From the human T2T-CHM13v2.0 reference genome, Homo sapiens, in assembly GCA_009914755.4 (NCBI GenBank), contig CP068257.2, forward strand, positions 10,240,001 through 10,304,000: 64,000 nucleotides of DNA, read 5' to 3'. Below, in pieces: positions 6,770-62,773 of the stretch. The position numbers and the translations under genes were made by a program. Position 1 is the stretch's first letter. Each line of letters starts with the position of its first letter. The notes below the pieces were generated by a model. That model made no database searches. It worked only from the letters and a program-made list of their open reading frames with translations, and had not been told where the DNA came from.

Positions 6770-6846
6770 TTTATTTCCACTGGATGTCACTCTGTCACTC
6801 AAACTGGAGTGCAGTGGCACAATCTTAGCTCACATTTCATTTCACA
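6770..6846 (-). mobile_element. Old 5'-truncated Alu 3'-end fragment (~75 bp, CpG-decayed)
   Basis: 'tttatttccactggatgtcactctgtcactcaaactggagtgcagtggcacaatcttagctcacatttcatttcac' aligns to the reverse complement of the Alu 3' end plus an A-tail remnant (TTTTTTTGAGACGGAGTCTCGCTCTGTCGCCCAGGCTGGAGTGCAGTGGCGCGATCTCGGCTCAC). All CpGs have become CA/TG. Confidence 0.75.
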
Positions 6847-9140
6847 ATTCCATTCCATTCCATTCCATTTCATTCCATTCCTTTCCATTCCATTCCATTC
6901 CTTTCCATTCCATTCCACTCTCTTCAACTCCAATCCACTACACTCCATTCCACTTCTCTGCATCCCACTCCAGTACACTGGAATCCACTCCAATCCACTC
7001 CACTCCATTCCACTACCCTCTACTCCATTCCATTCCACTCCATACCACTTCATAACAATCCACTCCAATCCTTTCCACTCCACTCCACTCAATTCCACTG
7101 CAATCCACTCCAATCCATTCCATTCCATTCCAATCCACTCCATTCCATTCCATTGCATTCCCTTCCAATCCACTCTACTCCATTCAATTTCGTTCCCCTC
7201 CAATCCTCTCCACTCCACTCCATTCCACTCAATTCCATTCCACTCCACTCAATTCCATTCCATTCTACTCCATTCCACTCCACGCTACTCCACTCCACTC
7301 CACTACACTCCACTTAATTTTATTCCATTCCATTCCATTCCATTCCATTCCATTCCATTCCATACCATTCCACTCCACTCCACTCCAATCCAATCCGTTC
7401 CATTCCACTGCACTCTGATCCACTCCACTCAACTCCACTCCATTCCACTTCATTCCATTTGATTCATTGCCACACCCCTCCTTTCCATTCTATTCCATTC
7501 CATTCCATTCCATTCCACTGCACTCCTATCCACTCCACTCAACTCCCCTCCACTCCACTATTTTCCATTCCATTCCATTCCATTCCATTCCATTCCTTTC
7601 CATTCCATTCATTTCCATTCCATTCCACGCCACTCCATTCCATTCAACTCCATTGAACTCCAATCCACTAAACTCCAATCCAATCCACTCCACTCCACTC
7701 CACTACGTTCCACTCCACTACACTCCACTACACTCCACTACTCTCCACTCTGTTCCATTCCGTTCCTTTCCATTCCATTCTGTTCTGTTCTGTTACATTC
7801 CACTCCATTCCATTCCATTCCACTCCAATGCACTCCAATCCATTTCACTGCATTCAACTCCATTCCACTCCACTCCAATCCACTTCACTCCATTCCATTC
7901 CGCTCCTTTGCATTCCATTCCACTCCATTCTATTCCATTCCATTCCACTCCATTCAACTCCATTCACCTCCACTTCCTTTCTCTCCATTCTGTTCCACTA
8001 CACTACACTCAATTCCCTTCCATTCCATTCCATTCCACTCCATTTCTTTCCATTCCATTCCACTCCATACCACTCCATTCCATTCTATTTCATTCCATTC
8101 CACTGTACTCCAATCCACACCACTTGACTCCACTGCAATCCACCCCAGTCCGTTCCATTTCGTTTCACTCCTTTCCCTTCCATTCCTCTCTATTCCATTC
8201 CACTCCACTCCAATCCAATCCACTCCACTCCTTTCCATACCACTCCATTCCATTCTAGTCCACTCCAATCACTCCATTCCATTGCATTCCACCCCATGCC
8301 ACTCCATTCCACTCCACTCCATGCCACTGCACTCCATTCCATTCCAGTCCTCTCCATTACACTCCATTCCATTCCATTCCATTCTATTCTATTCCATTCC
8401 ATTCCATTCCATTCCATTCCATTCCATTCCATTCCATTCTACTCTAGTCGGGTTGATTCCTTTCCTTTCACTTCCATTCCATTCCACTCCATTCCATTGT
8501 ACTCCACCCCATTCCACTCCATTCCATTCCACTCCACTCCATTCCATTTCATTCCATTCCATTCCATTCCACTGCACTTCCTTCTACTCCACTCAACTCC
8601 ACTACACACCACTCCATTCAATTTTGTTCCATTCCATTCCGTTCCATTCCACTTCATTCCACTCCACTACACTCAATTTTACTCCGCTCCATTTCACTCC
8701 ATTCCACTCCATTCCACTCCACTCCACTCCATTCCATTCCACTCCACTCCATTCCACTCCTTTCCATTCCATTCCATTCCATTCCATTCCGTTCCATTCC
8801 ACTCCATTCCACTCTGTTCCATTCCATTCCACTCCATTCCACTCTGTTCCATTCCATTCCCTTCCACTGCACTCCTATCCACTCGACTCAACTCCACTCC
8901 ACTGCACTCCACTCCGTTCCACTCCCTTCAATTCCATTCCGTTGCGTTCCATTCCATTCCATTCCATTCCATTCCACTCCAATCCATTGCATTCCACACC
9001 ATTCCACTCCACTCCTTTCCCTTCCACTCCTTTCAACTCCTTTCCACTCCATTCTATTCCATTCCTTTCCACTCCTTTCCATTCCATTCCATTACACTCC
9101 ACTCCATTCCATTCCATTCCACTCCATTCAATTTGATTCC

Positions 9141-9216
9141 TGTATTTCGGGTGGATCTCACTCTGTCACACAGAGATTAGTGCAATATCACAATCTTAGC
9201 TCACATTTCATTTCAC
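9141..9216 (-). mobile_element. Old Alu 3'-end fragment copy (diverged: 'cacacagagattagtgcaatatcacaatc')
   Basis: Same motif and same orientation as the copy at 6770-6846. Confidence 0.65.
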
Positions 9217-9877
9217 CATTCCATTCAACACCACTCCATTACATTCTACTGCACTCTATTCCACTCCACTCCACTCCATTTAACTCCACTCCACTCCACT
9301 CCATTCCATTCCATTCCATTCTATTTAATTCCACTGCACTCTGATACACTCCACTCAACTCCACTCTACTCCACTCCACTACACTACGTTCCATTCCATT
9401 CATTTTCCTTCCGTTCCATTCTGTTCCACTCCAGTCCATTACATTCCACTCCACTCCTTTCCAGTCCATTCCATTCCATTCCACTCGACTCCACTCCACT
9501 CCACTTCTTTCCATTAAATTCCATTCCATTCCACTGCACTCTGATCCACTCCACTCATTTCCACTCCATTTCACTCCACTCTGTTCCGTTCCATTCCAAT
9601 CTCTTCCATTCCAGTCCATTCCATTCCATTCCACTGAATTCTGCTCCATTCCACTCAATTCCATTGCACTCCGTTCCACTCCATTCCACTCTATGTTATT
9701 CCAGTCCATTCCTCTCCTTTCCATTCCCTTTCTGTCCACTGCATTCAACTCCAGTCCACTCCACTCCATTCCACTCCTCTCCACTCCATTCCACTGCATT
9801 CCACTCCACTCCATTCCACTCCTCTCCACTCCATTCCACTCCATTCCATTGCAATCCCCTCCATTCCATTCCGTTCC

Positions 9878-9953
9878 TTTATATCGAATGGATCTCACTC
9901 TGTAACTCAGACTTAAGTGCAGTGGCACAATCTTAGCTCACATTTTATTTCAC
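9878..9953 (-). mobile_element. Old Alu 3'-end fragment copy
   Basis: 'tttatatcgaatggatctcactctgtaactcagacttaagtgcagtggcacaatcttagctcacattttatttcac'. Confidence 0.75.
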
Positions 9954-10519
9954 CATTCCATTCCATTCCATTCCATTCCATTCCATTCCACTCTACTCCA
10001 TTCAATTCCACTCCATTCCACTCCATGCCACTCCACTCCTCTTCACTCCACTCCATTCCACTCCATTCCATTCCATTCCACTGAACTCCAATCCACACCA
10101 CTCAACTCCACTTGACTCCACTCTACTCCATTCCATTCCGTTTCATTCCTTTCCATTCCATTCATTTCCATTCCACTCCTTTATATTCCGCTCCACTCCA
10201 TTCTACTCCACTCCACTCCATTCTACTCCACTCCTCTCCATTCCATTCCATTTCTCTCCACTCCACTTCATTCCGTGCTATTCCATTCCATTCCATTCCA
10301 TTCCTTTCCCCTTCACTCCATTCCATTCCACTCCACTCCACACCACTTTACTCCGTTACCTTCCTTTCCATTCAATTCCGTTCCACTCCGTTCCATTCCG
10401 TTCAATTCTATTCCGTTCCACTCTACTCCAGTCCACTCCATTCCGTTTCACTCCATTCCGCTCCATTCCATTCCACTCCACTCCACTCCATTTCATTCTA
10501 CTCCATTCCATTCCATTCC

Positions 10520-10595
10520 TTTATTTATAATGGATCTCACTCTGTCAGCCAGACTGGAGTGCAGTGGCACAATCTTAGCTCACATTTCATTTCAC
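10520..10595 (-). mobile_element. Old Alu 3'-end fragment copy at the A/A' homology breakpoint
   Basis: 'tttatttataatggatctcactctgtcagccagactggagtgcagtggcacaatcttagctcacatttcatttcac'. The A/A' homology ends right after this copy. Confidence 0.75.
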
Positions 10596-11057
10596 CATTC
10601 CATTCAACACCACTCCATTACATTCTACTGCACTCTATTCCACTCCACTCCACTCCATTTAACTCCACTCCACTCCACTCCATTTCACTCCATTCGACTC
10701 CATCACACTCCACTCCACACCACTCCAATCCACTCGACTCCACTCCATTGCTATCCAGTCCATTCCATTTCATTCCAACCCAATCCATTCCATTCCATTC
10801 CACTCCATTCCACTCCATTCCACTCCATTCCATTCCACTCCAATCCACTCCACTCAGTGTACCCCACTCCATTCGACTCCACTCCACTCCATTCCACTCC
10901 ATTCCTTCCATTCCACTCCATTACGTTTCACTCCATTCCACTCCATTCCACTCTATTCCACTCCACTCCATTCCATTCCACTCCATTCCATTTCATTCCC
11001 CTCCATTCCATTCCACTCCACTCCCTTCCATTCCATTCTACTCCATTTCCTTCCATT

Positions 11058-11133
11058 CTTTTATTTTGACTGGATCTCACTCTGTTACACATACTGGAGT
11101 GCAGTGGCACAATCAGTTCACATTTCATTTCAC
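11058..11133 (-). mobile_element. Old Alu 3'-end fragment copy
   Basis: 'cttttattttgactggatctcactctgttacacatactggagtgcagtggcacaatcagttcacatttcatttcac'. Confidence 0.75.
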
Positions 11134-11751
11134 CATTCCATTCCATTTCATTCTATTCCATTCCATTCCACTCCACGCCACTACACTACACTCAACTCCA
11201 CTCCATTCCACTCTACTCCATTCCGTTCTGTTCCATTCCATTCTGTTCCATTACATTGCATTGCATTCCATTCCATTCCATTCCATTCCATTCCATTCCA
11301 TTCCATTCCTCTCGACTCCATTCCACTCCACTCAATTCCACCCCATTCCACTCAACTCCACTGCAGTCCTCTCCACTCCACTCCATTCCACTACAGTACA
11401 CTAAACTCCACTCTACTCCACTCAATTTCCATCCATTCCATTCCATTCCATGCAACTGCACTCCGATCAACTGCACTCAACTCCACTCCACTCACTCCAT
11501 TTCATTCGGTTCTGTTGCAGCTGTTCCGTTCCTTTCAATTCCACTCAATTGCATTCCACTCCACTCCAGTCCGCTCCACTCCATTTTCTCCATTCCACTC
11601 CTATCCACTCCACTCCACTCCAATCCACTCCACTCCTCTCCATTACATTCCACTCCATTCTTCTCCATTCCTCTCCATTCCATTCCATTCCACTCCATTC
11701 CCCTCCGCTCCACTCCATTCCATTCCACTCCACTCAATTCCACTCCACTAA

Positions 11752-12322
<571 letters not shown>

Positions 12323-12336
12323 GCAGTGGCACAATC
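12323..12336. repeat. Target-site duplication (right) of the AluY: GCAGTGGCACAATC
   Basis: See the left TSD. The sequence then continues 'ttagcacacatttcatttcaccattcc', which is the remainder of the old Alu-fragment motif. Confidence 0.8.
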
Positions 12337-12358
12337 TTAGCACACATTTCATTTCACC
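12323..12358 (-). mobile_element. Old Alu 3'-end fragment, copy split by the AluY insertion (right half)
   Basis: 'gcagtggcacaatcttagcacacatttcatttcac' continues the motif across the AluY. Confidence 0.75.
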
Positions 12359-14326
12359 ATTCCATTCCATTACACTCCACTCAATTCCATTCCATTCCAC
12401 CACGCTCCACTACACTCTACTTCCCTCCACTCCATGCCACTCCACTCCATTCCACTCGACTCCTTTCCATTCCATTGCATTCAATTCCATTCTATTCCAT
12501 TCCATTCCAGTGCACTCCTATCCACTCCACTCAACTCCAATACACACCACTCCACTCCTCTCTGTTCCATTCCTTTCCATTCCATTCCGTTCTCTTCCAT
12601 GCCATTTCTTTCCATTCCATTCCATTCCACTCCACTCCATTCCATTCCACTCCACTCCATTCCATTCCACTCCATTCCATTCCATTCCACTCCACTCCAC
12701 TCCATTCCATTTCACTCCACTCCACTCCATTCCATTCCTTTCCATTGCATTCCATTAAATTCCACACCACTCCGATCCACTCCACTCAACTCCACTCCAA
12801 TCCACTCCACTCCAATCTGTTCCTTTCCGTTCCATTCCATTCCTTTCAATTCCATTCCTTTCCATTCCATTCCAATGCACTTCAGTCCATTCCATTCCAC
12901 TCCACTGCATTTCTCTCCATTCCACTCCATTAAAATCCTCTCTAATCCACTCCACACCATTGCACTCCTTTCCACCCCACTCCAGTCCATTCCACTCCAA
13001 TCCATTCCATTCCACTCCACTCATCTCCACTCCACCCCATTCCATTCCCTCCACCCCATTCCATTCTACTTCTTTCCATTCCTCTCCAGTCCATTCCACT
13101 CCAATCCACTTCATTCCATTTCACTCCACTCCATTCCATTCCGTTACATTGCAATCCATTCCATGCCATTCCACTCCATTCCATTCCACTGTCCTCCACT
13201 CCACTCCACACTACTCCATTACATTCCTTTGCATTCCACTAGACTCCATTCCTTTCCATTCCATTCCATTTCACTGCACTCGGATACAATCCACTGAACT
13301 CCACTGTACTCCACTCCACTCCATTCCGTTCCTTTCCATACCTTTGCGTTCCATTTCATTCCATACCGTTCCATTCCATTCCATTCCACTCCACTCCATT
13401 CCATTCCAATTCAATCCACTCCACTCTACTCCACTCCACTCCACTGTAACCCACATCACTCTTTTCCATTCCATTCCATTCCACTGCACTACAATCCACT
13501 CCATTCAGCTCCACTCTAATCCATTCCACTCCACTCCATTCCATTCAATTCCGTTGCGTTCTGTTCCGTTCCATTCCATTCCACTCCATTCTATTCCACT
13601 ACAATCCATACCACTCCACTACATTTCTTTCATTTCCATTCCATTACAGTCCACTCGACTCCACTCCAGTACACTCCATTCAATTCCATTCCACTCCATT
13701 CTATTCCAGTCCACTCCATTCCTTTTCATTCCGTTCCAATCCATTCCACTCCATTACACTCCACTCCACTACACTTCATTCCACTCCACTCCAAACCATT
13801 ACACTCCACTCCACTCCAATCCATTCTACTCCACTACACTCCATTCCATTCCATCCCATTCCACTCTACCCCACACCACTCCACTCCACCCCACACCACT
13901 CCACTCCATTCCATTCCACTCCACTCCATTCCATTGCAATCCATTTCATTCCATTCCATTCCACTCCACTCTGAACCACTCCACTCAATTCCACTGCATT
14001 CCACTCCACTCCACTTAGTTCTGTTCTGTTTCTTCCCATTCCATTCCTTTACATTCCATTCCATTCCTTTCCACTCCACTGTGAACCACTTCACTTAACT
14101 CCACTTCATTCCTGTCCAATCCACTCAGTTCCGTTCTGTTTCTTTCTTTCCGTTCCATTCCATTCCATTCCATTTCGTTCCATTCCATTCCAATCCCCTT
14201 CATTCCATTGCAGTCCACATCACTCCACTACACTCCATTCCATTCCACTCCACACCATTCCACTCCACTCCATTGCATTCCACTCCACTACAGTCCATTC
14301 CATTCCACTCTACTCCACACCACTCC

Positions 14327-14396
14327 ACTACACTCCATTCCATTCCATTCCATTCCATTCCATTCCATTCCATTCCATTCCATTCCATTCCATTCC
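14327..14396. repeat. Perfect (CATTC)14 tract
   Basis: Direct reading of the sequence. Confidence 0.9.
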
Positions 14397-14770
14397 AATC
14401 CACTCCATTCCATTCCAATCCATTCCATTCCTTTCTATTCCATTCCACTATGAACCTCTCCACTCAACTCCACTGCATTCCAGTCCACTCCACTCAGGTC
14501 CTTTCTGTTTCTTTCCATTCCATTCCATTCCATTCCATTCCATTCCATTCCGTTCCATTTCATTCCAATCCTCTCCATTCCATTACAGTCCATTCAACTC
14601 CACTCCACTCCACTCAAATCCGCTTCACTCCACTCCACTCCGCTCCACTCAATTTCATTCCACTCCATTCCATTCCATTACACTCCATTACATTACATTC
14701 CATTGCTCTCCATACCCCTCCATTCCACTCCACTCCATTCTACTCCACTCATCTCCACTCCACTCCATTC

Positions 14771-14935
14771 CACTCCATTCCATTCCATTCCATTCCATTC
14801 CATTCCATTCCATTCCACTCCATTCCACTCCATTCCATTCCACTCCATTCCATTCCATTCCATTCCATTCCATTCCATTCCATTCCACTCCATTCCATTC
14901 CATTCCACTCCATTCCATTCCACTCCATGCCATTC
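14771..14935. repeat. Near-perfect (CATTC)n tract, about 33 units with only CACTC variants
   Basis: Direct reading of the sequence. It underlies the monotonous '[10 protein letters not shown]' ORFs at 14688..14938. Confidence 0.9.
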
Positions 14936-14982
14936 CACTCCACTCCTTTCCTTCCCATTCTACTCCATTGCATTCCAGTCCT

Positions 14983-15057
14983 TTATTTCAAATGGATCTC
15001 ACTCTGTCACCCAGAAAGGAGTGCAGTGGCACAATTTTAGCTCACCTTTCATTTCAC
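14983..15057 (-). mobile_element. Old Alu 3'-end fragment copy
   Basis: 'tttatttcaaatggatctcactctgtcacccagaaaggagtgcagtggcacaattttagctcacctttcatttcac'. Confidence 0.75.
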
Positions 15058-16381
15058 CATTCCATTCCATTCCATTCCCTTCCATTCCATTCCATTCTAC
15101 TCCACTCCATTCCATTCCACTTCACTCCATTCCACTCTACTCCCTTCCATTCCATTCCACTCCACCCCATTCCTTTCCATCCATTTGCATTCCTTTCCAT
15201 TCCACTGCACTCCAATCCACTCCACTCAACTCCTCTCCACTGCTCTCCACTCCGTTCCTTTCTTTTCCATTCCATTTCATTTCATTACTTTCCATTCCGT
15301 TACATTCCATTTCATTCCACTCCACTCCACTCCATTCCATTTCACACCATTCCACTCAACTCCCCACCACTCCACTACACTCTACTTCACTCCACTCCAT
15401 TCCTTTCCATTCCATTCCATTCCACTGCACTCGGTTTCACTCCACTCAACTCCACTCCATTCGACTCCACTCCACTCTGTTCCATTCCATTCCATTCTGT
15501 TTCATTCCATTCCACTCCTTTCCATTCCTCTCCCCTCCATATCACTCCACTCCATTTCCCTCCATTCCACTCCTTTTTACTCGACTCCTCTCCAATACAC
15601 TTTACTCCATTCCATTCCAATCCATTCCTTTCCAGTCCACTCCATTCCATTCCATTCCATTCCCCTCCATTCCACTCCATTCCACACCACTCCGTTCCAC
15701 TCCCTTACACTCCACTCCACTCCATTTCATTCCACTCCACTCCATTCTATTCCATTCCATTCCTCTCCACTACATTCCATTCAAATCCATCAAATTCCTT
15801 TCCATTCCACTGCACTGCGACCCACTCCTCTCAACTCCACTCCACTCCACTCCATTCCATTCCGTTCCACTCCATTCTGTTCCATTCAATTACATACCAC
15901 TCCACTCCTTCCATTCCACTCCATTCCACTCCACTCTACACAACTTCTCACAACTCCAGTCAATTCCACTCAATTCCACTCACTGCACTCCATTCCAGTC
16001 CATTTCATTCGATTCAAGTGCACTCCGATCCACTCCAGTGAACTCCTCTCCACTCCACCACACTCCTTTCCATTCTCTTCCATTCTGTTCCATTCCATTC
16101 CAATCCATTCAATTCCACTCCACTCCATTCCACTGCACTCCATTTCACAACATTCCACTCCATTCCATTGCACTCCACTGCATTCCACTCCATTCCACTC
16201 CACTCCATTCCCTCCCTTTCCACTGCATTCCATTCCATTCCATTAAACTCCACTCCACTCCGTTCCACTCCACTCCATTTCACTCCATTTCACTCCATTC
16301 CACTCCACTCCACTCCATTCCACTCCATTCCATTTCACTCCAACCCATTCCATTTCATTTTACTCCATACCTTTCCATTCC

Positions 16382-16457
16382 TTTATTTTGACTGGATCTA
16401 ACTTTGTCACCTAGACTGTAGTGCAGTTGCAGAATCTTAGCTCACATTTCATTTCAC
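16382..16457 (-). mobile_element. Old Alu 3'-end fragment copy (first of a 182-bp tandem pair)
   Basis: 'tttattttgactggatctaactttgtcacctagactgtagtgcagttgcagaatcttagctcacatttcatttcac'. Confidence 0.7.
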
Positions 16458-16564
16458 TATTCCATTCCATTCCATTCCATTCCATTCCATTCCACTCCAC
16501 TCCACTCCATTCCATTTCACTCCAACCCATTCCATTTCATTTTACTCCATACCTTTCCATTCCT

Positions 16565-16639
16565 TTATTTTGACTGGATCTAACTTTGTCACCCAGACTG
16601 TAGTGCAGTTGCAGAATCTTAGCTCACATTTCATTTCAC
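16565..16639 (-). mobile_element. Old Alu 3'-end fragment copy (second of a 182-bp tandem pair)
   Basis: Same sequence as the copy at 16382-16457. Confidence 0.7.
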
Positions 16640-17480
16640 TATTCCATTCCATTCCATTCCATTCCACTCCACTCCACTCCACTCCACCCCACTCCATTCC
16701 ACTCCACTCCACTCCACTTCACTCCACTCCATTGCATTCCACTCCACTCCACTCTTTTCCATTCCATTCCATTTAATTCCATTCCATTGCACTCCCATCA
16801 TCTCCACTCAGCTCCACTCCACTCCACTCCACTCCCTTCTGTTCCGTTCCATTCCATTCCATTCCATTCCATTCCATTCCTTTCCATTCCATTCCACTCC
16901 ATTCAATTCCATTCCACTCCATTCTGCTCCACTCCATTCCACTCCACTCCACTCCACTCCACTCCGTTCCATTCCATTCCTTTCCTTTCCACTACAGTCC
17001 GATCCCCTCCACTCAACTCCACTCCATTGCACTACACTCCACTCTGTTCCATTCCATTCCGTTCTGTTCAGTTCCGTTCCGTTCCGTTCCGTTGCATTCC
17101 TCTCCATTCCATTCCACTCCACTCCATTTAACTCCACTCCTTTTCACTCCATTCTAATCCATTCGTTTCCATTCCACACCACTCCTTTCCATTCCATTCC
17201 ACTAAATTCCATTCCATTCCTTTCCAAACCACTCCACTTCATTCCACTCCACTCCACTCCATTCCTCTTCAATCCATTCCACTCTACTCCACTCCATTCC
17301 ACGCTATTCCATTCCGTTCCACTCCATTCCATTTCATTCCATTCCACTCCATTCCACTCGATTCGACTCCACTCCATTCCAATGCACTCCACTCCATTCC
17401 ACTCCATTCCATTCCACTTCACTCCATTACATTCCACTTCACTCCATTCCATTCCATCCAACTACATGCCATTCCGTTCT

Positions 17481-18112: not shown

Positions 18113-18194
18113 CCCTTGCATTCCATTCCATTCCTTTCCATTCCATTCCACTCCAATCCATTCCATTACATTCCACTCCATTCCATTCTATTCC

Positions 18195-52346: not shown

Positions 52347-53592
52347 AATTCCATTCCATTCCATTCCATTCCACTTCAGTCCCCTCCACTCCACTCAACT
52401 CCACACAACTCCACTCCATTCCATTCCATTCCACTCCACTCCACTCCATTCCATTCCACTCCACTCCATTCCATTTCATTGCATTCCATTCCATTCCACT
52501 CCATTCCATTCCACTCCATTCCACTGCACTCCACTTCACTCCACTCTACTCTACTACATTCTATTCCATTCCATTCCACTGCACTCTGATCCACTCCACT
52601 CAACTCCACTCCACTCCACTACTCTACACTCTGTTCCATTCCGTTCCATTCCATTCCTTCCATTCTATTCTAATCCATTCCCTTCCTCTCCACTCCATTC
52701 CACTCCACTCCATTTCACTCCATTCCACTCCATTTCACTCGACTCAACGGCACTCCATTACATTCCACTTCATTCCATTCCATTCCACCCCATTCCATTC
52801 CATTCCATTCCACTCCACTCCCTTCCATTCCACTCCACTCCACTACATTCCACGACACTCCATTCTACTCCATTCCATTCCATTCCATTACGCTTCTCTC
52901 CATTCCACTAAATTCCATTCCATTCCTTTCTACTGCACTTTTATCCACTCCACACAGCTCCACTCCACTCCACTCTGTTCCCTTCTGATCAATTCCATTC
53001 CATTGCATTCCATTCCGTTCCATTCCATTCCATTCCATTCCACTCCACTCGACTCCATTCCATTCCACTCCATTCTACTCCATTCCACTCCACTCCACTC
53101 CACGCCAGTCCACTCCACTGCACTCCACTCCACTCCATTCCATTCCATTTCACTGCACTCCAATCCACTCCACTCAACTCCACTCCAATTCACTCCACTA
53201 CGTTCCGTTCCATTCCATTCCATTCCATTCCATTCCATTCCACTCCATTCCATTCCACTCCATTTCACTCCATTACACTCCATTCCACTCCACTACACTC
53301 CCCTCCCTTCCATTTCACTCCATTCCATTCCATTCCACTCCATTCCATTCCATTCCATTCCATTCCATTCCATTCCATTCCATTCCTTTCCATTCCTCTC
53401 CACTCCACTCCTTTCCACTCCACTACACCCCATTCCACTCCACTCCACTCCATTCCACTTCTATCCATTCCACTCCACTCCGTTACATTCTACTCCACCT
53501 CATGTCATTCCACTCCATTCCATTCCACTCCATTCCACTCCACTCCACTCCTCTCCATTCCATTCTTCTTTACTCTATTCCATTCCATTCCT

Positions 53593-53668
53593 TTATTTCG
53601 ATTGGATCTCACTCTGTCACCCAGACTGGAGTGCAGTGGCACAATCTTAGCGCACATTACATTTCATC
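53593..53668 (-). mobile_element. Old Alu 3'-end fragment copy
   Basis: 'tttatttcgattggatctcactctgtcacccagactggagtgcagtggcacaatcttagcgcacattacatttcatc'. Confidence 0.75.
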
Positions 53669-53749
53669 TTTCCATTCCATGGCATTCCATTCCATTCCAT
53701 TCTATTATATTCTACTCCACTCCACTCCACTCCATTCCATTCCACTCCA

Positions 53750-53776
53750 CCCCTTTCCTTTCCTTTCCTTTCCTTT
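53750..53776. repeat. (CCTTT)5 microsatellite embedded in the satellite
   Basis: 'cctttcctttcctttcctttcctttc'. Confidence 0.8.
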
Positions 53777-54434
53777 CAATTCCACTCCTTTCCATTCCAT
53801 TCCATTCCATTCCACTTCACTCCAAACCACTCCAGTCATATCCTCTCCACTCCACTACGTTCCATTCCGTTCAACTCCATTCTCGTCCATTCCATTCCGT
53901 TTCATTCCATTCCATTCCATTCCAATCCAGTCCATTGCATTCCACTCGATTCCACTCCAATTCACTCAACTCCACTCCATTCCATTCCATTCCATTCCAT
54001 TCCATTCCACTGCACTCCCACCCCCTCCACACAACTCCACTTCACTGCACTCCACTCCACTCCGTTTCATTGTGTTCTATTCCATTCCTTTCCGTTCCAT
54101 TCCATTACATTCGATTCCAATCCACTACATTCCAATCCACTACATTCCACTCCATTCCATTCCATTCCACTCCACTCCACTCCATTCCAATCCACTCCTC
54201 TCCATTCCACTCCACTCCACTCCATTCCACTGCATTCCATTCCATTCCACTCCTTTCAGTTCCATTCCTTTCCACTCCAATCCAATCCGTTATACTACAA
54301 TCCATTCCACTCCACTTCCATTCCACTCTGTTATACTGCAATCCATTCCACTCCACTTCCATTCCTCTCCACTCCACTCCCTGCCACTCCATTCCACTCT
54401 ACTCCATTCCATTCTACTCCATTCCATTCCTTTC

Positions 54435-54511
54435 CTTTATGTCGACTGGATCTCACTCTGTCACCCAGAGCAGAGTGCAGTGGCACTGTCTTAGCTCACA
54501 TTTCATTTCAC
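54435..54511 (-). mobile_element. Old Alu 3'-end fragment copy
   Basis: 'ctttatgtcgactggatctcactctgtcacccagagcagagtgcagtggcactgtcttagctcacatttcatttcac'. Confidence 0.75.
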
Positions 54512-55036
54512 CATTCCATTCCATTTCATTCCACTCCACTCCACTCCACTCCACTGAACTCTGTTCCATTCCATACCATTCCATTCCACGCCACTCCATA
54601 CCACTCCATTCCACACCAGTCCACTCCACTCCATTCCACGCCACTCCACTCCACTAAACACCAGTCCACTCCACTCCATTCCCTTACATCCAATCGATTC
54701 CTTTCCTTTCCAGTCCATTCCACTGCACTCCAATACATTGTATGCAACTCCACTCCACTCCACTCTGTTCCATTCTGTTCCATTTCGTTCCATTCTGTTC
54801 CATTCCATTCCAATCAATTCCATTCCACTCCACTCCACTACACTCCAATCCATTTCACTCCGTTCCACTCCATTCCACTCCGCTTTACTAAACTGCTTTT
54901 TATTCCACTCCATTCCACTCCATTCCAATCCACTCCATTCCACTCTATTCCATTCTACTCCACACTACTCCATTCCACTCCATTTCAATCCACTGCACTC
55001 CATGCCATTCCATTCTACTCTGTTCCATTGCATTCC

Positions 55037-55111
55037 TTTATTTCGACTGGATCTCACTCTGTCACCCAGACTGGAGTGCAGTGGCTCAATCTGAGCACAC
55101 ATTTCATTTCA
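55037..55111 (-). mobile_element. Old Alu 3'-end fragment copy
   Basis: 'tttatttcgactggatctcactctgtcacccagactggagtgcagtggctcaatctgagcacacatttcatttcac'. Confidence 0.75.
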
Positions 55112-56294
55112 CCAATCCATTTCATTCTTTTCCAATCCTTTCCATTCCATTCCACTCCAATCCACTCCAGTCCTCTCCATTCCTCTACACTCCTTTCCAT
55201 TGTCTTCCATTTCACTCCACGGCAATACGATCCATTCCACTCAAAACCACTGCAGTCCACTGTGCTCAATTCCGTTCCGTTACTTTCCATTCCATTCCAT
55301 TCCATTTCATTCCATTCCATTCCATTCCATTCCATTCCATTCCATTCCATTCCACTCCATTCCACTGCATTCCACTCCATTCCATTCCACTCCCTTCCAC
55401 TATATTCCACTCCACTCCGTTCCACTCCACTACACTCCACTGCCCTCCATTCCATTCCATTCCATTCTTTTCCATTCCATTCCATTCCATTCTTTTCCAT
55501 TCCATTCCATTCCTTTCCATTCCATTCTATTCCACTCCACTGCAGTTCTTTCAATTTTGTTCCAGTGCTTTCCTTTATGTTCCATTCCACTCCATTCCTT
55601 TCCACTCCACTCCTTTCCACTCCTCTCCATTTCACTCCATTCCACTCCATTCACCTCAACTCCGCTCCACTCCACTGCACTCCACTCCAATCCCTTCCAT
55701 TCCACCCCATTCCATTACATTCCATTCCACTCCTTTCCATTACATTCCACTACTTTCCACTTCATTCCACGCCATTCCCCTCCACAGCATTCCACTCCAC
55801 TCCCTTCCAATCCACTCCACTCCATTCCATTCCATTCCACTCCATTCCATTCCATTCCAATCCATTCCACTTCAATCCACTTCACTCCAATCTACTCCAT
55901 TCCATTCCATTCCACTCCATTCCATTCCATTCCACTCCATTCCATTCCTTTCCAATCCATTCCACTTGAATCCATTCCACTCCATTCCACTTGAATCCAT
56001 TCCACTCCATTCCACTCCATTCCATTCCACTCCACTCTATCCCATTCCATTCCACTCCACTCCATTCCATTCCATTCAATTCCACTCCATTCCATTCCAT
56101 TCCAATCCATTCCACTTCAATCCACTTCACTCCATTCCACTCCATTCCATTGCATTCCACTCCATTCCATTCCTTTCCAATCCATTCCACTTCAATCTAT
56201 TCCACTCCATTCCATTCCATTCCACTCCATTCCCTTCCATTCCATTCCACTCCACTCCATTCCATTCCTTTCTACTCCATTCCATTCAATTCCT

Positions 56295-56369
56295 TTATTT
56301 CGATTGGATCTCACTCTCTCACCCAGATTGGAGAGCAGTGGCACAAACTAAGCTCATGTTTCATTTCAC
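56295..56369 (-). mobile_element. Old Alu 3'-end fragment copy
   Basis: 'tttatttcgattggatctcactctctcacccagattggagagcagtggcacaaactaagctcatgtttcatttcac'. Confidence 0.75.
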
Positions 56370-57146
56370 CATTCCATTCCATTCCATTCCATTCCATTCC
56401 ACTGCACTCTGATCCACTCCACTCCACTCCACTCCACTTTAATCCACTAAGTTCAATTCCGTTCCCTTCCATTCTGTTCTGTTCCGTTCCCTACCCGACC
56501 ATTCTATTCCACTCCACTCCATTCCACCTCACTCCATTTCTCTGCATTACACTCCATTCCATTCCACTCCACTGTACTCCACACCCCTCCACTCCGTTCC
56601 ATTGTATTCCATTACACTCCATTCCATTCCACTGCATTCCATTCCATTTCATTCCATTCTACTCCACTCCATTCCATTCTACTCCACTCCAGTCCATTCC
56701 ACTCCACTCCACTGCACTCTGCTCCACTCCAATCAACTCCATTCCACTCCACTGCACTAAACTCCACTCCAGTCCACTTCATTCCCTTCCATTTCATTCC
56801 ACTACACTCCACTCCATTCCAGTCCACTCCACTCCACTCCACTCCATTCCATTCCATTCCATTCCATTACACTCCACTCCATTCCACTCCACTCCATTCC
56901 ATTCCACTCCATTCCACTCCATTCCATTCCATTCCATCCCATTCCACTGTATTCCAATCCACTCCATTTCACCTCAATCCATTCCACTTCACTCCACTCC
57001 ATTCACTCCACTCCATTTCCTTCCACTCTTCCATTCCATTCTATTCCACTCCATTCCACTCCATTCCACTCCACTCCACTCCATTCCACTCCATTCCATA
57101 CCATTTTATTCCATTCCATTCCATTCTACTCCATTCCATTCCATTC

Positions 57147-57223
57147 CTCTATTTCGATTGGATCTCACTCTGTCACCCAGACTTGTGTGCAGTGGCACAA
57201 TCTTAGCTCACCTTACATTTCAC
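57147..57223 (-). mobile_element. Old Alu 3'-end fragment copy
   Basis: 'ctctatttcgattggatctcactctgtcacccagacttgtgtgcagtggcacaatcttagctcaccttacatttcac'. Confidence 0.75.
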
Positions 57224-58256
57224 CATTCCATTCCATTCCATTCCATTCCATTCCATTCCATTCCATTCCATTCCAATCCATGGAAATCCACTCCACTCCA
57301 CTCCACTCCGCTCCACTCCTTTCTATTCCACTCCACCTCGTTCCATTCCATTCTATTCCTTTCCATTTCATTCCATTCCATTCCACTGCACTCCGATCCA
57401 CTTCACTCCATTCAACTCCACTCCATTCCACTCCACTACTTTCCATTCCATTCCATTTCATTCTGTTCCATTCCATTCCATTCTGTTCCATTCCATTCCA
57501 TTCAACTCAACTCCATTCCGTTCCCCTGCATTCCACTCCAATTCACTCCACTCCACTCCATTCCATTCCATACCATTCCATTCCACTGCACTCCTATCCA
57601 CTCCACACAACTCCACTCCACTGCACTCCACTCCACTCCGTTCCATTCCATTCCGTTCCATTTTATTTCTTTCCATTCCATTCCTCTCCATTCCACTCCA
57701 CTTCACTCCACTCCACTCCACTCCATTCCATTCCATTCCATTCCATTCCATTCCATTGCACACCAGTCCCTTCCATTCCATTCCATTCCTTTCCACTCCA
57801 CTCGACTGCAGTCCGTTCAATTAGGTTCCAATCCTTTGCTTTCCATTCCATTCCACTCCATTCCGTTCCACTCCACTCCTTTCTACTCCTCTCTTTTTCA
57901 CTCTATTCCACTCCATTCCACTCTACTCTGCTCCACTGTACTTTACTCCACTCCAATCCACTCCATTCCATTCCATTCCATTCCATTCCATTCCACTGCA
58001 CTCCGATACCCTCCACGCAACTCCACTCCACTCCACTCTTTTCCATTCCGTTCCATTCTGTTCTGTTCTGTTCCATTCCATTCCATGCCATTCAATTCCA
58101 CTCCACTCAACACAATTTCACTCCATTCCACTCCATTCCACTATAGTCTACTGAACTCCATTCCATTCCACTCCATTCCAAACCACTCCACTCCATTCCA
58201 CTCCATTCCATTTCACTCCACTCTATTCAATTCCATTCTACTCCATTCCATTGCAT

Positions 58257-58335
58257 TCCTTTGTTTCTTCTGGATCTCACTCTGTCACCCAGACTGGAGT
58301 TCAGTGGCACAATCTTAGAACACATTACATTTCAC
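58257..58335 (-). mobile_element. Old Alu 3'-end fragment copy
   Basis: 'ctttgtttcttctggatctcactctgtcacccagactggagttcagtggcacaatcttagaacacattacatttcac'. Confidence 0.75.
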
Positions 58336-59043
58336 CATTCCATTTCATTCCATTCCATTCCTTTCCATTCCACTCCACTCCACTCAACTCCTCTCCATTC
58401 CTGTGCACACCTTTCTATTCCATTCCATTCCATTCTACGGTAATCCAATCCATTCTAATCAACACCACTCCACTCCACTCTGCTCCACTCCGTTCCATTC
58501 CATTCCATTTCATTCCATTCCATTCCATTCCATTGCATTCCATTCCATACTATTCCTTTCCATTCCATTCCATTCCATTCCATTCCACTCTACTCAAATT
58601 CCATTCCACTCCATTCCACTCCACTCCACTACACTCCACTGCAATCCATTCCATTCCATTCCACTGCAAACCACTCCTTTCCATTCCATTCCATTCCATT
58701 CCTTTCCAGTCCTTTACTTTCCATACCATTCCACTCCATTCCATTCCACTCCACTCCTTTCCACTCTTCTCCATTTCACTCCATTCCACTCCATTACACT
58801 CCAGTCCGCTCCACTCCACTCCAATCCACTCCACTACACTCCAGTCCGCTCCACTCCACTCCACTCCACTCCATTCCACTCCATTCCATTCCACTCCAGT
58901 CCATTCCATTCCATTCCATTGCACTCCATTCCATTGCACTCCATTCCATTCCATTCCACTCCATTCCACTCCATTCCAATCCATTCCACTTCAATCCAAT
59001 CCACTACATTCCTTTCGTTTCTACTCCATTTCATTCCATTCAT

Positions 59044-59118
59044 TTATTTCGACTGGATCTCACTCTGTCATCCAGACTGGAGAGCAGTGGCAATATCTTA
59101 GCTCACATTTCATTTCAG
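59044..59118 (-). mobile_element. Old Alu 3'-end fragment copy
   Basis: 'tttatttcgactggatctcactctgtcatccagactggagagcagtggcaatatcttagctcacatttcatttcag'. Confidence 0.75.
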
Positions 59119-59913
59119 CATTCCATTCCATTCCATTCCAATCTATTCCACTCCATTCCATTCCATTGCATTCCATTCCACTGCACTCCCATCCACTCCA
59201 CTCAACTCCACTCCACTCCAGTGCACTAAGCTCAATTCCGTTCCCTTCCATTCGGTTGCTTTCCATTCTATACCCAACCATTCTATTCCACTCCACTCCA
59301 TTCCACTCCACTCCACTTCTCTCCATTCCCCTCAATTCCATTCCACTCCACTCCACTCCACTCCATTTCTTTCCATTCCACTCCTTTCCATTCCATGGCA
59401 TTCCATTCCATTTCATTCTATTCCACTCTACTCCATTCGATTCCACTCCATTCCAGTCCATTCCACTCCACTCCACTCCACTCTGCTCCACTCCAGTCAA
59501 CTCCATTCCACTCCACTCCACTTCATTCCATTCCATTCCATTCCATTCCACTGCAGTCCGATCCACTCCACCCAATTCCACTCCACTCCAACCATTCCAT
59601 TCCATTCCGTTCCATTCTATTCCGTTCTGTTCCGTTCCATTCCATTCTACACCATTCCATTCCACTCCACTCCACTCAACTTGACTCCACTCCATTCCAT
59701 TCCACTCCATTCCACTGCATTCCAATCCACTCCATTCCACCTCAATCCGTTCCTCTCCACTCCTCTCTATTCCATTCCTCTCCATTACATTCCACTCCAT
59801 TCCATTCCATTCCACCCCATTACACACCATTCCAATCCACTCCACTCCATTCCAATCCATCCAATTCCATTTTATTCCATTCCATTCCATTCTACTTTAT
59901 TCCATTCCATTCC

Positions 59914-59989
59914 CTTATTTCAATCGGATCTCACTCTGTCACCGAGACTGGAGTGCAGTGGCACAATCTTAGCATACACTACATTTCAC
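59914..59989 (-). mobile_element. Old Alu 3'-end fragment copy
   Basis: 'cttatttcaatcggatctcactctgtcaccgagactggagtgcagtggcacaatcttagcatacactacatttcac'. Confidence 0.75.
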
Positions 59990-60658
59990 CATTCCATTCC
60001 ATTCTTTTCCATTCCATTCCATTCCACTCCACTCCTCTCCACTCCACTCAATTCTGTTCCATTCCATTCCATTCCATCCAATTCCATTCCATTCCATTCT
60101 GTTCCATTCCATTCCATTCCATTCCATTCCATTCCATTCCATTCCATTGCCTTGCATTGCATTCCTTTCCATTGCATTCCATTCCTTTCCATTCCATTCC
60201 ATTCCATTCCACTGCACTCCGGTCCAATCCACTCCACTCCACTACGTTCAGTTCCGTTCCATTCAATTCTGTTCCATTCCATTCCGTTCCATTCTGTTCC
60301 ATTCCTTTCCACTCCCCTCCATACCATTCCACTCTATTCTACTCCACTTCACTCCACTCCACTCCACTCCACTCCACCCCATTCCATTCCATACCATTTC
60401 ATTCCGCTGCACTCCCATCCACTCCACACAACTCCACTCCACTCTGTTCCATTCTGTTCTGTTCCGTACCTTTCCATTCCATTCCACATCATTCCATTCC
60501 AATGCAGTCCATTCCACTCCACTCCATTCCACTCCGTTATACAGCAATCCATTCCACTCCACTCCATTCCACTCCACTCCACTCCATGCCCCACCATTCC
60601 CTTCCACTGCACTCCACTCCACTCCATTCCATTCCATTCTACTCCATTCCATTCCATT

Positions 60659-60735
60659 CCTTACTTCGACTGGGTCTCACTCTGTCACTCAGACAGGAAT
60701 GCAGTGGCACAATCATAGTTCACATTTCATTTCAC
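60659..60735 (-). mobile_element. Old Alu 3'-end fragment copy
   Basis: 'ccttacttcgactgggtctcactctgtcactcagacaggaatgcagtggcacaatcatagttcacatttcatttcac'. Confidence 0.75.
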
Positions 60736-61747
60736 CGTTCCAGTCCATTCCATTCCAGTTCATTCCATTCCACTCCAGTCCACTCTACTCCACTCCACTC
60801 TACTCCACTCCACTCAACTCCACTGCACTCCACTCAACTCCATTCTGTTCCGTTCCATTCCTTTCCTTTCCATTGCATTGCATTCCTTTCCATTCCATTC
60901 CATTCCACTCCACTCCACTCCATTCCACTCCGTACCTTCACATTCCACTCCAGTCCTCTCCACTCCACTCTACTACACTCCATTCCACTCCACCACATTA
61001 AACTTCACTCCACTACACTCCATTCCATTCCATTCCATTCCACTGTACTGCGACACACTCCACTCAATTCCAATCCACTCAACTCCACTACACTCCGTTC
61101 CATTCCATTCCATTCTGTTCTATTCCATTCAACTCCATTACACTCCACTGCACTCCACTCCACTCCATTTCACTCCATTCCACTCCATTCCACTGCACTC
61201 CACTCCACTAAACTCTATTCCATTCCACTCCATTTCAGTACATTCCATTCCACTCCATTCCACTCCACTCCATTCCTCTCGATTCCATTCCATTCCTCTC
61301 CATTCCACTCCATTCCACTCCACTCCAATTCCACTCCATTCCACTCCACTCCACTCCACTAAACTCCATTCCATTCCACTCCATGTCAGTCCATTCCACT
61401 CTACTGCATTGCACTACACTCCATTCCATTCCTCTCAATTCCATTCCTTTCCACTCCACTCCATTCCACTCCACTCCACTAAACGCCACTCCACTTCACT
61501 AAACTCCACTCCTCTCGACTCCATACCATTCCATTACATTCCATTACATTCCACTGCAGTCCGATCCACTCCAATCAACTCCACTCCACTCTATTCCACT
61601 TTGTTCCATTCCGTTCTGTTCTGTTCCGTTCTACTGCACTCCATTCCATTCCACTCCACTCTAATCCACTCTACTCCACTCCTTTCCTCTCCGTTACATT
61701 CCACATCACTCCATTCCATTGCATTTTACTCCATTCCGTTCCATTCC

Positions 61748-61823
61748 TTTATTTAGACTGTATCTCACTTTGTCACCCGTACTGGAGTGCAGTGGCACAA
61801 TCTTAGCTCACGTTTCATTTCAC
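61748..61823 (-). mobile_element. Old Alu 3'-end fragment copy
   Basis: 'tttatttagactgtatctcactttgtcacccgtactggagtgcagtggcacaatcttagctcacgtttcatttcac'. Confidence 0.75.
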
Positions 61824-62697
61824 CATTCCATTTCATTCCATTCCAATCCTTTCCATTCCACTCCGTTCCACTCCACTCCACTGCACTCCAATCTGCTGCA
61901 CTCCACTCCATTCCACTCCACTCCACTGCACTCCAATCCATTCCATTTCACTCTATGCCACTGCTTTCCATTACATTGCATTCCATTTCAATCCTCTCCA
62001 TTCCAATCCATTCCACTCCACTCCAATCCACTCCACTCCACTCCACTTCATTCCATTCCATTCCATTCCATTCCCTTCCACTCCACACCATTCCATTTTA
62101 CTCCACTCCCCTCTACTCCACTCCATTCCATTAAATTCCATTCCACTCCTCTTCATTCCATTCGATTTCATTCCATTCCATTACATTCCAGTCCACAGCA
62201 CTCCTATACACTCCACACCACTCCACTCCACACTACTCCACTCCATTCCATTCCTCTCCACTCCACTCCATTCCATTCCATTCCATTCCATTCCATTCCA
62301 TTCTACTCCACTGCATTCCATTCCATTCCACTCCACTGAAGTCCACCCACTCCATTTCACTCCATTCCACTTCCATCCACTCCATTCCACTCCATTCCAT
62401 TCCACTCCACTCCATTCCATTCCATTTCATTCCATTCCTTTCAATCCCACTCCATTCCACTCCATTTCACTCCACTCCTTCCACTCCTTTCCATTCCACT
62501 ACACTACATTCTCCTCCTTTCCATTCCATTCCTCTCCCTTCCATACCATTCCTTTCCACTCCATTCCACTCCACTCAATTCCATTCCACTCCATTCAATT
62601 CCATTCCACTCCATTACACTCTATTCCACTCTATTCCACTCCATTCCATTCCACTCTTCTCCCTTCCATGAAATTCTACTCCATTGTATTCCATTCC

Positions 62698-62773
62698 TTT
62701 ATTTCGACTGGATCTCACTCTGTGACCCAGACTGGAGTGCAGTGACAGAATTTTAGCTCACATTTCATTTCAC
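62698..62773 (-). mobile_element. Old Alu 3'-end fragment copy
   Basis: 'tttatttcgactggatctcactctgtgacccagactggagtgcagtgacagaattttagctcacatttcatttcac'. Confidence 0.75.

What the first reader, a model, noticed from the sequence alone, without database searches (positions are those of the whole stretch)
6770..62773. A 5'-truncated Alu 3'-end fragment is a recurrent, co-amplified component of this HSat3 array
About 42 copies of a ~75-bp element sit in the satellite, all in the same (-) orientation. The element is a poly-A remnant plus the last ~60 bp of an Alu: TTTATTTCGACTGGATCTCACTCTGTCACCCAGACTGGAGTGCAGTGGCACAATCTTAGCTCAC versus TTTTTTTGAGACGGAGTCTCGCTCTGTCGCCCAGGCTGGAGTGCAGTGGCGCGATCTCGGCTCAC. 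The same flanks, 'ccattcctttattt|...|catttcatttcaccattcc', recur at every copy. That means a single old insertion into an ancestral satellite unit was amplified with it, rather than there being ~40 independent insertions. Spacing is irregular at 0.55-2 kb, so the intervening pentamer tracts have expanded and contracted differently in each unit. This Alu-marked unit gives an internal landmark for dating and tracing this satellite subfamily.
Basis: partly seen in the sequence, partly recalled or inferred. Interest (0 to 1): 0.6.

Follow-up and report, generated by a model that had tools for sequence, protein, structure and literature searches.

The report
Old Alu tail fragment amplified within HSat3

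Summary
The window is 64 kb of HSat3-type satellite, a CATTC/CACTC pentamer mix. It carries exactly 41 copies of a 64-bp element, or 77 bp with its fixed non-pentamer spacer ATTTCATTTCACC. All copies lie on the + strand, which is Alu antisense. All share the same T-tail junction, and 40 of 41 share the same Alu truncation junction.

The consensus aligns to the last 57 bp plus tail of Alu (53/64 identical, z above 20 against shuffles). A single capture followed by co-amplification is therefore well supported.

- There are 41 copies, not about 42.
- Spacing is 157-7437 bp (median 933), not 0.55-2 kb.
- The source subfamily, and so the date, cannot be resolved from 57 bp.

Host-derived contigs in metagenome assemblies carry 325 more copies with the same junctions. 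They include a second variant (type B) that is closer to Alu and therefore ancestral, and is packed at 150-450 bp. Copies are about 9.6% diverged from their consensus, with no local homogenisation (Mantel p = 0.74).

The T2T centromere and T2T-Y papers already describe Alu fragments within HSat3 repeat units and the lack of local homogenisation. The finding is therefore real but ordinary.

Side findings are a young full-length AluY inserted inside one old fragment, and a 27.67-kb duplication at 99.85% identity whose junction sits at a fragment.

The parts
6770..6846 (+). Alu-tail fragment copy (64 bp) + 13-bp spacer; Alu is antisense on the + strand
   Evidence: E=5e-25
9141..9217 (+). fragment copy, most diverged (17% from consensus)
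9878..9954 (+). fragment copy
10520..10596 (+). fragment copy; the 27.67-kb duplication junction lies 19 bp past its Alu part (10602|10603)
11060..11134 (+). fragment copy with a 2-bp deletion
11970..12024 (+). left part of a fragment copy interrupted by a young Alu
12026..12322 (-). young full-length AluY-type insertion (281 bp + A16) inside the old fragment; not part of the amplified unit
   Evidence: 11-14 mismatches to remembered AluYa5/AluY; Rfam Metazoa_SRP E=1.6e-13
12323..12358 (+). second copy of the 14-bp target-site duplication GCAGTGGCACAATC (12323-12336; first copy 12011-12024), then the rest of the interrupted old fragment and its spacer
14982..15058 (+). fragment copy
16382..16458 (+). 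fragment copy, first of a 182-bp local tandem duplicate pair
16564..16640 (+). fragment copy, second of the 182-bp pair
17481..17557 (+). fragment copy
18038..18114 (+). fragment copy, first of a 157-bp local duplicate pair
18195..18271 (+). fragment copy, second of the 157-bp pair
19332..19408 (+). fragment copy
20169..20245 (+). fragment copy
23951..24027 (+). fragment copy (17% diverged)
25515..25591 (+). fragment copy
27000..27076 (+). fragment copy
34437..34513 (+). fragment copy, identical duplicate of 6770
36803..36879 (+). fragment copy, identical duplicate of 9141
37540..37616 (+). fragment copy, identical duplicate of 9878
38187..38263 (+). fragment copy, identical duplicate of 10520; the duplication ends at 38269
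42290..42366 (+). fragment copy
44056..44131 (+). fragment copy (1-bp deletion)
44612..44688 (+). fragment copy
46623..46699 (+). fragment copy
48482..48558 (+). fragment copy
49024..49100 (+). fragment copy
49865..49940 (+). fragment copy (1-bp deletion)
50906..50980 (+). fragment copy (spacer shortened)
52271..52347 (+). fragment copy
53592..53668 (+). fragment copy closest to the consensus (3% diverged)
54436..54512 (+). fragment copy
55037..55113 (+). fragment copy
56294..56370 (+). fragment copy
57148..57224 (+). fragment copy
58260..58336 (+). fragment copy
59043..59119 (+). fragment copy
59914..59990 (+). fragment copy
60660..60736 (+). fragment copy
61748..61824 (+). fragment copy
62698..62774 (+). 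fragment copy (last in the window)
1..64000 (+). host array: HSat3-type satellite, CATTC-family and CACTC-family pentamers in about a 56:44 ratio, GC skew about -0.83 throughout

Best explanation
This is a relic of one retrotransposon insertion, carried passively by satellite amplification.

One Alu, most likely of AluS/Y type, came to lie antisense in a (CATTC)n-derived satellite. It was either inserted already 5'-truncated or was cut down soon afterwards. The last ~57 bp of its right arm, a short T-rich tail remnant and a 13-bp non-pentamer spacer (ATTTCATTTCACC) became part of a short satellite unit.

That unit was multiplied by unequal exchange or replication slippage, so every copy inherited the same two junctions. 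An early form (type B: TTTCTTTCGACAGG...CAGGCTGG...CTCAGCTCAC) survives elsewhere in the genome at 150-450 bp spacing. The form in this window (type A) derives from it by four substitutions.

In the type A domain the pentamer tracts between landmarks then grew and shrank. The routes were 5-bp slippage and local duplications of 0.15-1.4 kb and 27.7 kb, giving irregular spacing of 157-7437 bp. Copies have since drifted independently, to about 9.6% from their consensus.

The fragment itself does nothing detectable; it is a neutral landmark.

Shown: Alu homology, common junctions, same orientation, star-like divergence, slippage indels, and type B being closer to Alu. Inferred: the order of events, truncation at insertion versus later deletion, human origin, and HSat3A-type membership.
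For: Alu homology: 53/64 identity, z = 22-26 against 1000 shuffles, and z = 21.8 against the real Alu in the window.

One origin:
- 41/41 copies are on one strand.
- The truncation junction is present in 40/41 copies, against 33/2000 random positions.
- The flank consensus is shared for about 50-100 bp on each side.
- The same junctions occur in 307-322 of 325 copies on 83 independent satellite contigs.

Type B is ancestral. At the three diagnostic sites inside the Alu body, B carries the Alu state or its CpG-decay product: CCAGCCTGG, GCTGAG from GCCGAG, and CCTGTC. B copies are also more diverged from their own consensus than A copies, 11.0% against 8.5%.

Tract dynamics: the duplicated 10.6 kb differs by 1 substitution and three 5-bp indels, and there are local duplications of 157, 182, 260 and about 1400 bp.

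Neutrality: divergence in the Alu body (8.8%) is like that of the adjacent satellite (7-12%). There is no correlation between distance and position, Mantel r = -0.03, p = 0.74.

Not an assembly artefact: eight metagenome-derived contigs match the window at 97.8-99.8% over their full length, and most window copies have 124-mer matches with 0-1 differences.

Against: - No clear target-site duplication or long A-tail can be identified around the old fragment. The 7-nt TTTATTT/TTTCTTT could be partly satellite-derived (ATTTC variants). A classical retrotransposition event is therefore inferred from homology, not demonstrated.
- The fragment is not present once per regular unit. Stretches of 3-7.4 kb lack it, so part of the array may have grown from Alu-free subunits rather than by expansion of Alu-marked units.
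- Divergence of about 9-10% is high for something derived from an AluS/Y-age source. It requires a higher-than-average mutation rate in the satellite, or an older source.
- The Alu consensus sequences used were recalled from memory.
- The metagenome scan used a type-A-specific 16-mer, so the relative abundance and arrangement of A and B are biased.
Confidence: 0.9

Rival explanations
1. A full-length Alu was inserted, and a later deletion or unequal crossover inside it created the unit boundary. On this view GCTCAC|ATTTC is a recombination junction rather than a 5' truncation made during reverse transcription. This is a variant of the main explanation, not a contradiction of it.
For: No target-site duplication can be recognised around the old fragment. 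Rearrangement junctions in this array do fall at or inside the fragment: the 27.67-kb duplication junction, and a 117-bp identical tract that starts inside a fragment.
Against: No copy, among 41 in the window and 325 elsewhere, retains any Alu sequence beyond GCTCAC. If a deletion happened, it preceded all amplification and cannot be told apart from truncation at insertion.
Confidence: 0.3
2. The fragment spread through a pre-existing array by gene conversion from one marked unit, rather than being present in the founder unit that was amplified.
For: Identity between 9189-9305 and 10568-10684 begins inside the fragment, although the 5' parts of those two copies differ strongly. This looks like a conversion or crossover tract. 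Long Alu-free stretches exist, up to 7.4 kb.
Against: Conversion active enough to spread the element should also homogenise neighbours. Yet copies are about 17% different pairwise, with no relation to distance, and most substitutions are private. Flank architecture is shared only over about 50-100 bp, which both models predict.
Confidence: 0.1
3. About 40 independent Alu insertions into the satellite.
For: Alus do insert here: a young full-length AluY with a 14-bp TSD and A16 tail sits at 12026-12322.
Against: All copies share one orientation, one truncation point, one tail junction, the same 13-bp spacer and the same derived substitutions relative to Alu. The one truly independent insertion looks entirely different: full length, intact CpGs and its own TSD.
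Confidence: 0.01
4. Chance resemblance to Alu, or an assembly artefact that repeats one sequence.
For: None beyond the low complexity of the surrounding sequence.
Against: z is above 20 against shuffles, and 0 of 100 shuffles gave any match. Copies differ from each other by about 17%, so they are not collapsed or duplicated reads. Independent contigs reproduce the window at 98-99.8%.
Confidence: 0.01

Closest known systems
HSat3-associated Alu fragments described by the T2T consortium (Altemose et al., centromere maps; Rhie et al., T2T-Y)
   Same: Alu fragments embedded in HSat3 as part of the repeating material. The fragments are old and diverged. There is no local homogenisation and no clustering by position, which I reproduce (Mantel p = 0.74; literature).
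   Different: The text I could read calls them 'AluY fragments' and does not give the anatomy found here. That anatomy is a fixed 57-bp 3' end with a 13-bp spacer, the two variants A and B, and B being ancestral. From 57 bp I cannot confirm AluY over AluS, which are identical over this stretch in my remembered consensus. The chromosome (Y or acrocentric in the paper) could not be checked.
HSat1B / DYZ2, the 2.4-2.5 kb Y-chromosomal satellite with one Alu-derived subunit per repeat (Frommer et al. 1984, as cited)
   Same: A single ancient Alu-derived segment became a fixed part of a satellite unit and was amplified with it.
   Different: DYZ2 has a regular unit length, a much longer Alu part, an AT-rich non-pentameric remainder and strong homogenisation. 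Here the unit length is irregular (157-7437 bp), only 57 bp of Alu is kept, the rest is pentameric, and the copies are not homogenised.
Acrocentric satellite III subfamilies (pTRS-47, pR-1/2/4, pE-1/2, pK-1, pW-1; HSat3A1/A2/A4 of Altemose 2014)
   Same: CATTC-derived arrays with kilobase-scale irregular units and a chromosomal distribution (acrocentrics and Y) matching where T2T-Y places HSat3-Alu fragments. Altemose cites Bandyopadhyay 2001 for TE fragments in these arrays. The window lacks the GGGTTGA-type motif seen in the top HSat3B 24-mers.
   Different: None of the 14 published top subfamily-specific 24-mers occurs exactly in the window. The full 24-mer list was not available, so the subfamily is not assigned.

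Membership tests
Alu SINE (3' end of the right arm) | Significant sequence homology to the Alu consensus | tested here: met
   53/64 identical over the last 57 bp plus tail, z = 22-26 against 1000 shuffles. It also aligns to the genuine Alu in the window, z = 21.8. The consensus sequences were recalled from memory and sanity-checked against the in-window Alu.
Alu SINE (3' end of the right arm) | A-rich tail directly after the 3' end | tested here: inconclusive
   Only 7 nt (AAATAAA in type A, AAAGAAA in type B) are present in every copy. This is short and could partly be a satellite variant pentamer.
Alu SINE (3' end of the right arm) | Target-site duplication flanking the insertion | tested here: inconclusive
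   No unambiguous direct repeat flanks the 64-bp element, and the flanks are themselves repetitive pentamers. In contrast, the young Alu at 12026-12322 has a clean 14-bp TSD.
Alu SINE (3' end of the right arm) | Subfamily-diagnostic positions (AluJ vs S vs Y) | tested here: inconclusive
   Type A: 54 matches to either. Against S/Y there are 6 CpG transitions, 3 other mismatches and 3 gaps; against J there are 4, 6 and 1. Type B: 56 matches to S/Y (5 CpG, 2 other) against 55 to J (4 CpG, 5 other). S and Y do not differ in this stretch.
Human satellite 3 (HSat3) | Array derived from the (CATTC)n pentamer with strong strand asymmetry | tested here: met
   The ten rotations of CATTC and CACTC are the ten commonest 5-mers and cover about 55% of positions as exact matches. 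GC skew is about -0.8 across all 64 kb.
Human satellite 3 (HSat3) | Assignment to one of the 11 HSat3 subfamilies by subfamily-specific 24-mers (Altemose 2014) | tested here: inconclusive
   Only the single most common 24-mer per subfamily was available. None matches exactly. The nearest at <=2 mismatches are A2 (82), B5 (49) and A4 (30). The stored full list is cut after HSat2.
Composite satellite / nested tandem repeat with an embedded TE fragment | The TE fragment has identical boundaries in every unit | tested here: met
   The truncation junction is recognisable in 40/41 window copies and 307/325 copies elsewhere. The tail-junction test scored 41/41 and 322/325 but was not specific (782/2000 random positions passed). 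The shared tail junction therefore rests on direct reading of the aligned copies.
Composite satellite / nested tandem repeat with an embedded TE fragment | A regular repeat period | tested here: not met
   Spacing is 157-7437 bp with median 933. Apart from the 27.67-kb duplication, shared 40-mers show only weak, local offsets, traced to local duplications.
HSat3-Alu fragments of T2T-Y (Rhie et al.) | No local homogenisation of the fragments | tested here: met
   Mantel Spearman r = -0.03, p = 0.74. Adjacent copies differ by 16.4%, against 17.3% for all pairs.
HSat3-Alu fragments of T2T-Y (Rhie et al.) | Location on chrY or acrocentric short arms | not testable with these tools
   No human assembly is searchable here. 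The genome-contig scan (prokaryotes) gave 0 hits.

The most novel reading that the evidence does not exclude
The Alu-derived landmark is not only a passive marker. As the only ~80-bp stretch that fixes an unambiguous alignment register in a sea of pentamers, it may be the preferred site of unequal crossover and conversion that restructures the array. Three observations hint at this. The junction of the 27.67-kb tandem duplication lies 19 bp beyond a fragment. A 117-bp identical tract between two units starts inside the fragment. The 157- and 182-bp local duplications each carry one fragment.
Probability: 0.12. Interest if true: 0.35.

Novelty: already known. Interest (0 to 1): 0.15.

Why it matters
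It matters little beyond housekeeping. The fragment is a convenient, sequence-specific handle in an otherwise featureless satellite. It can anchor probes, primers or read alignments. It separates two variant domains: type A, sparse and derived, and type B, dense and ancestral. It also lets array rearrangements be read off, such as the 27.67-kb duplication and 5-bp slippage events outnumbering substitutions 3 to 1. It does not open a new question, because TE fragments inside HSat3 units and their lack of homogenisation are already reported by the T2T papers.

Tried and rejected
- Subfamily assignment with Altemose 2014 24-mers failed. The 14 published top 24-mers gave no exact hits. The stored supplement is cut after HSat2A1/A2, and a search of the supplements for Alu-fragment k-mers found nothing.
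- The genome-contig scan for the junction 20-mer gave 0 hits.
- A whole-window megablast self-comparison timed out. I replaced it with k-mer diagonals.
- No fetched contig covers the young-Alu site at 11.2-13.2 kb, so I could not ask whether that insertion is polymorphic.
- Rfam detects only the young Alu (Metazoa_SRP E=1.6e-13, plus Alu-derived miRNA families). It does not detect the 64-bp fragments.
- Choo et al. 1990 (pTRS-47) could not be fetched.
- I abandoned dating from divergence. A divergence of 9.6% from consensus implies an age older than the likely source under standard rates (my own rough arithmetic), so the clock is not usable in this satellite.
- I looked for selection on the fragment and rejected it. 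Its divergence (8.8%) equals that of the adjacent satellite.
- The T-tail junction regex proved non-specific (782/2000 random positions pass). Only the truncation junction is used as the statistical argument.

Full report
**What is in the window.** All 64 kb are one strand-asymmetric satellite. GC skew is about -0.8 throughout. The ten commonest 5-mers are the rotations of CATTC and CACTC, in roughly a 56:44 ratio. This is HSat3-type sequence. It lacks the GGGTTGA-type motif present in the top HSat3B 24-mers. None of the 14 published top subfamily 24-mers occurs exactly, so I leave the subfamily open, with 'HSat3A-like' as an inference.

**Checking the observation.** Four approaches find the same 41 elements, all on the + strand, from 6770 to 62774:
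- a 39-mer search with up to 3 mismatches, which found 20 hits against 0 in 100 shuffles;
- a composition-only scan for G-rich islands;
- nhmmer --max with a profile of the copies.

In the profile search every true copy has E <= 1e-16 and everything else has E > 0.4, so there are no decayed or hidden copies.

**Is it Alu?** The reverse complement of the consensus aligns without end gaps to the last 57 bp plus tail of Alu. Identity is 53/64, with z = 22-26 against 1000 shuffles. It aligns equally to a genuine full-length Alu that happens to lie in the window, z = 21.8.

I wrote the Alu consensus sequences from memory. As a check, the remembered AluY matches the in-window Alu with 14 mismatches over about 281 bp, and the remembered Ya5 with 11. 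Rfam independently recognises that in-window Alu as 7SL-derived (Metazoa_SRP E = 1.6e-13).

All five CpGs of this Alu stretch are decayed in the consensus.

**One insertion or many?** The evidence points to one:
- Every copy has the same orientation.
- The T-tail junction is the same (...CCATTCC|TTTATTTCGAC).
- The Alu truncation point is the same (GCTCAC|ATTTCATTTCACC).
- The 13-bp non-pentamer spacer is the same.
- The flank architecture is shared: ATTCTACTCC about 20 bp upstream, and about ten CATTC units followed by a CACTC-rich stretch downstream.

The truncation junction is recognisable in 40/41 copies, against 33/2000 random positions. The one truly independent Alu insertion in the window looks quite different, as described below.

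**Related sequence elsewhere.** A scan of prokaryotic genome contigs found nothing. Of these, 83 (249 kb) are HSat3-like and therefore evidently host DNA in the samples.

These contigs hold 325 complete further copies, about 188 distinct loci after collapsing near-identical ones. They have the same junctions: 307/325 for the truncation junction and 322/325 for the tail. Eight contigs match the window at 97.8-99.8% over their whole length. Most window copies have a 124-mer match with 0-1 differences. The window is therefore a real, stable locus and not an assembly artefact.

**Two variants, A and B.** The contigs reveal a second form of the element. Type A is the only form in the window. Type B is TTTCTTTCGACAGGATCTCACTCTGTCACCCAGGCTGGAGTGCAGTGGCACAATCTCAGCTCAC (140 type B against 160 type A copies).

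At the three diagnostic sites inside the Alu body, B carries the Alu state or its CpG-decay product. B copies are also more diverged from their own consensus, 11.0% against 8.5%. B is therefore the older form and A is derived.

B copies sit 150-450 bp apart and adjoin A domains in the same orientation. This suggests that the original unit was short and that the window's A domain has expanded tracts. One caveat applies: the scan pattern is type-A-specific, so the proportions are biased.

**Source subfamily and dating.** From type A alone, AluJ and AluS/Y tie at 54 matches each. Type B slightly favours AluS/Y, because GCTGAG is one CpG transition from GCCGAG. However, it has the CCCTGTC-type 3' end. 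AluS and AluY are identical over this stretch in my remembered consensus sequences.

Divergence-based dating is also unsafe. Copies are 9.6% from their consensus, and only 19 of 37 independent copies keep the single consensus CpG. Under standard rates (my own arithmetic) this implies an age older than the probable source. Elevated mutation in the satellite is one possible reason, but I did not test this.

**Copy relationships.** Pairwise distance is about 17% and most substitutions are private. There is no relation between sequence distance and physical distance: Mantel r = -0.03, p = 0.74, with adjacent copies at 16.4% and all pairs at 17.3%. The only close pairs are recent local duplicates (16382/16564 and 18038/18195) and the large duplication.

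Divergence in the Alu body (8.8%) matches that of the adjacent satellite (7-12%), so there is no sign of constraint.

**How the array changes.** Window 1-10602 is repeated at 27673-38269 with 99.85% identity. The differences are one substitution and three 5-bp indels.

The pattern fits a 27.67-kb tandem duplication whose unit begins upstream of the window (inference). Its junction (10602|10603) lies 19 bp past fragment copy 10520. Both this junction and the distal end (38269) are reproduced in independent contigs, L016 at 99.86% and L083 at 99.6%.

Other local events are:
- a 117-bp tract, 9189-9305 = 10568-10684, whose identity begins inside the fragment;
- a roughly 1.4-kb duplication in an Alu-free stretch;
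- 260-, 182- and 157-bp duplications.

[quoted passage not shown] 2001 on acrocentric satellite III.

[quoted passage not shown] My results reproduce exactly that picture. The closest structural analogue, HSat1B/DYZ2, also carries one ancient Alu piece per unit, but it is regular and homogenised.

**Verdict.** The spacing range and copy count need small corrections, and the dating value is overstated. The thing is a neutral relic of one Alu capture, co-amplified with an HSat3 unit. It is already documented in kind, so interest is low. The A/B variant structure and the coincidence of rearrangement junctions with the fragment are the only points I could not find described. Neither is surprising.

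Noticed in passing
window 12011-12336: A young full-length AluY-type element (- strand, 12026-12322, 281 bp + A16) is inserted inside old fragment copy 11970. It has a 14-bp target-site duplication GCAGTGGCACAATC (12011-12024 and 12323-12336). CpGs are mostly intact. It has 11 mismatches to a remembered AluYa5 and carries three Ya-like substitutions, which suggests a hominid, probably human, origin of the window.
   Followed up: partly
window 1-10602 and 27673-38269: A 10.6-kb segment is repeated at an offset of 27,662-27,672 bp with 99.85% identity (1 substitution, three 5-bp indels). This is consistent with a 27.67-kb tandem duplication whose unit starts upstream of the window. The junction at 10602|10603 lies 19 bp past an Alu fragment. 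Both ends are confirmed in independent contigs L016 and L083.
   Followed up: partly
window 9189-9305 vs 10568-10684: A 117-bp exact-match tract at offset 1379 begins inside the Alu fragment (about position 49 of 64). The 5' parts of the two fragment copies differ strongly. It looks like a conversion or crossover tract.
   Followed up: no
window 16319-16666; 18038-18271; 22907-23421; 1263-4105: Local tandem duplications of 182 bp and 157 bp each carry one fragment. There are also duplications of 260 bp and about 1.4 kb (1263-2776 vs 2602-4105, in an Alu-free stretch). These show array growth at several scales.
   Followed up: partly
loci L009, L018, L034, L054, L094, L106, L108, L114, L115 (metagenome-derived host contigs): A second, more Alu-like variant of the fragment (type B: TTTCTTTCGACAGG...CAGGCTGG...CTCAGCTCAC) is spaced 150-450 bp and sits next to type A domains in the same orientation. 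'Mixed' haplotypes also occur (25 of 325).
   Followed up: partly
consensus of the 41 copies (e.g. window 53592-53655): All five CpGs of the Alu stretch have decayed in the same direction, CG to CA on the window + strand, which is TG on the Alu sense strand. Five of five is suggestive of a strand bias but not significant (two-sided p about 0.06).
   Followed up: no
window 17052-17105, 18623-18681, 25291-25334: There are short patches where the pentamer variant GTTCC/CGTTC dominates, for example a (CCGTT)n run at 17052-17105. These are the only other G-containing islands besides the Alu material.
   Followed up: no
window, - strand, many sites (e.g. 43480-43495): The Alu sense-strand motif CCACTGCACTCCAG resembles the satellite's CCACTCCACTCCA. 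This gives a carpet of weak reverse-strand profile hits (E = 0.4-10). It is a trap for motif searches and not a sign of further copies.
   Followed up: yes
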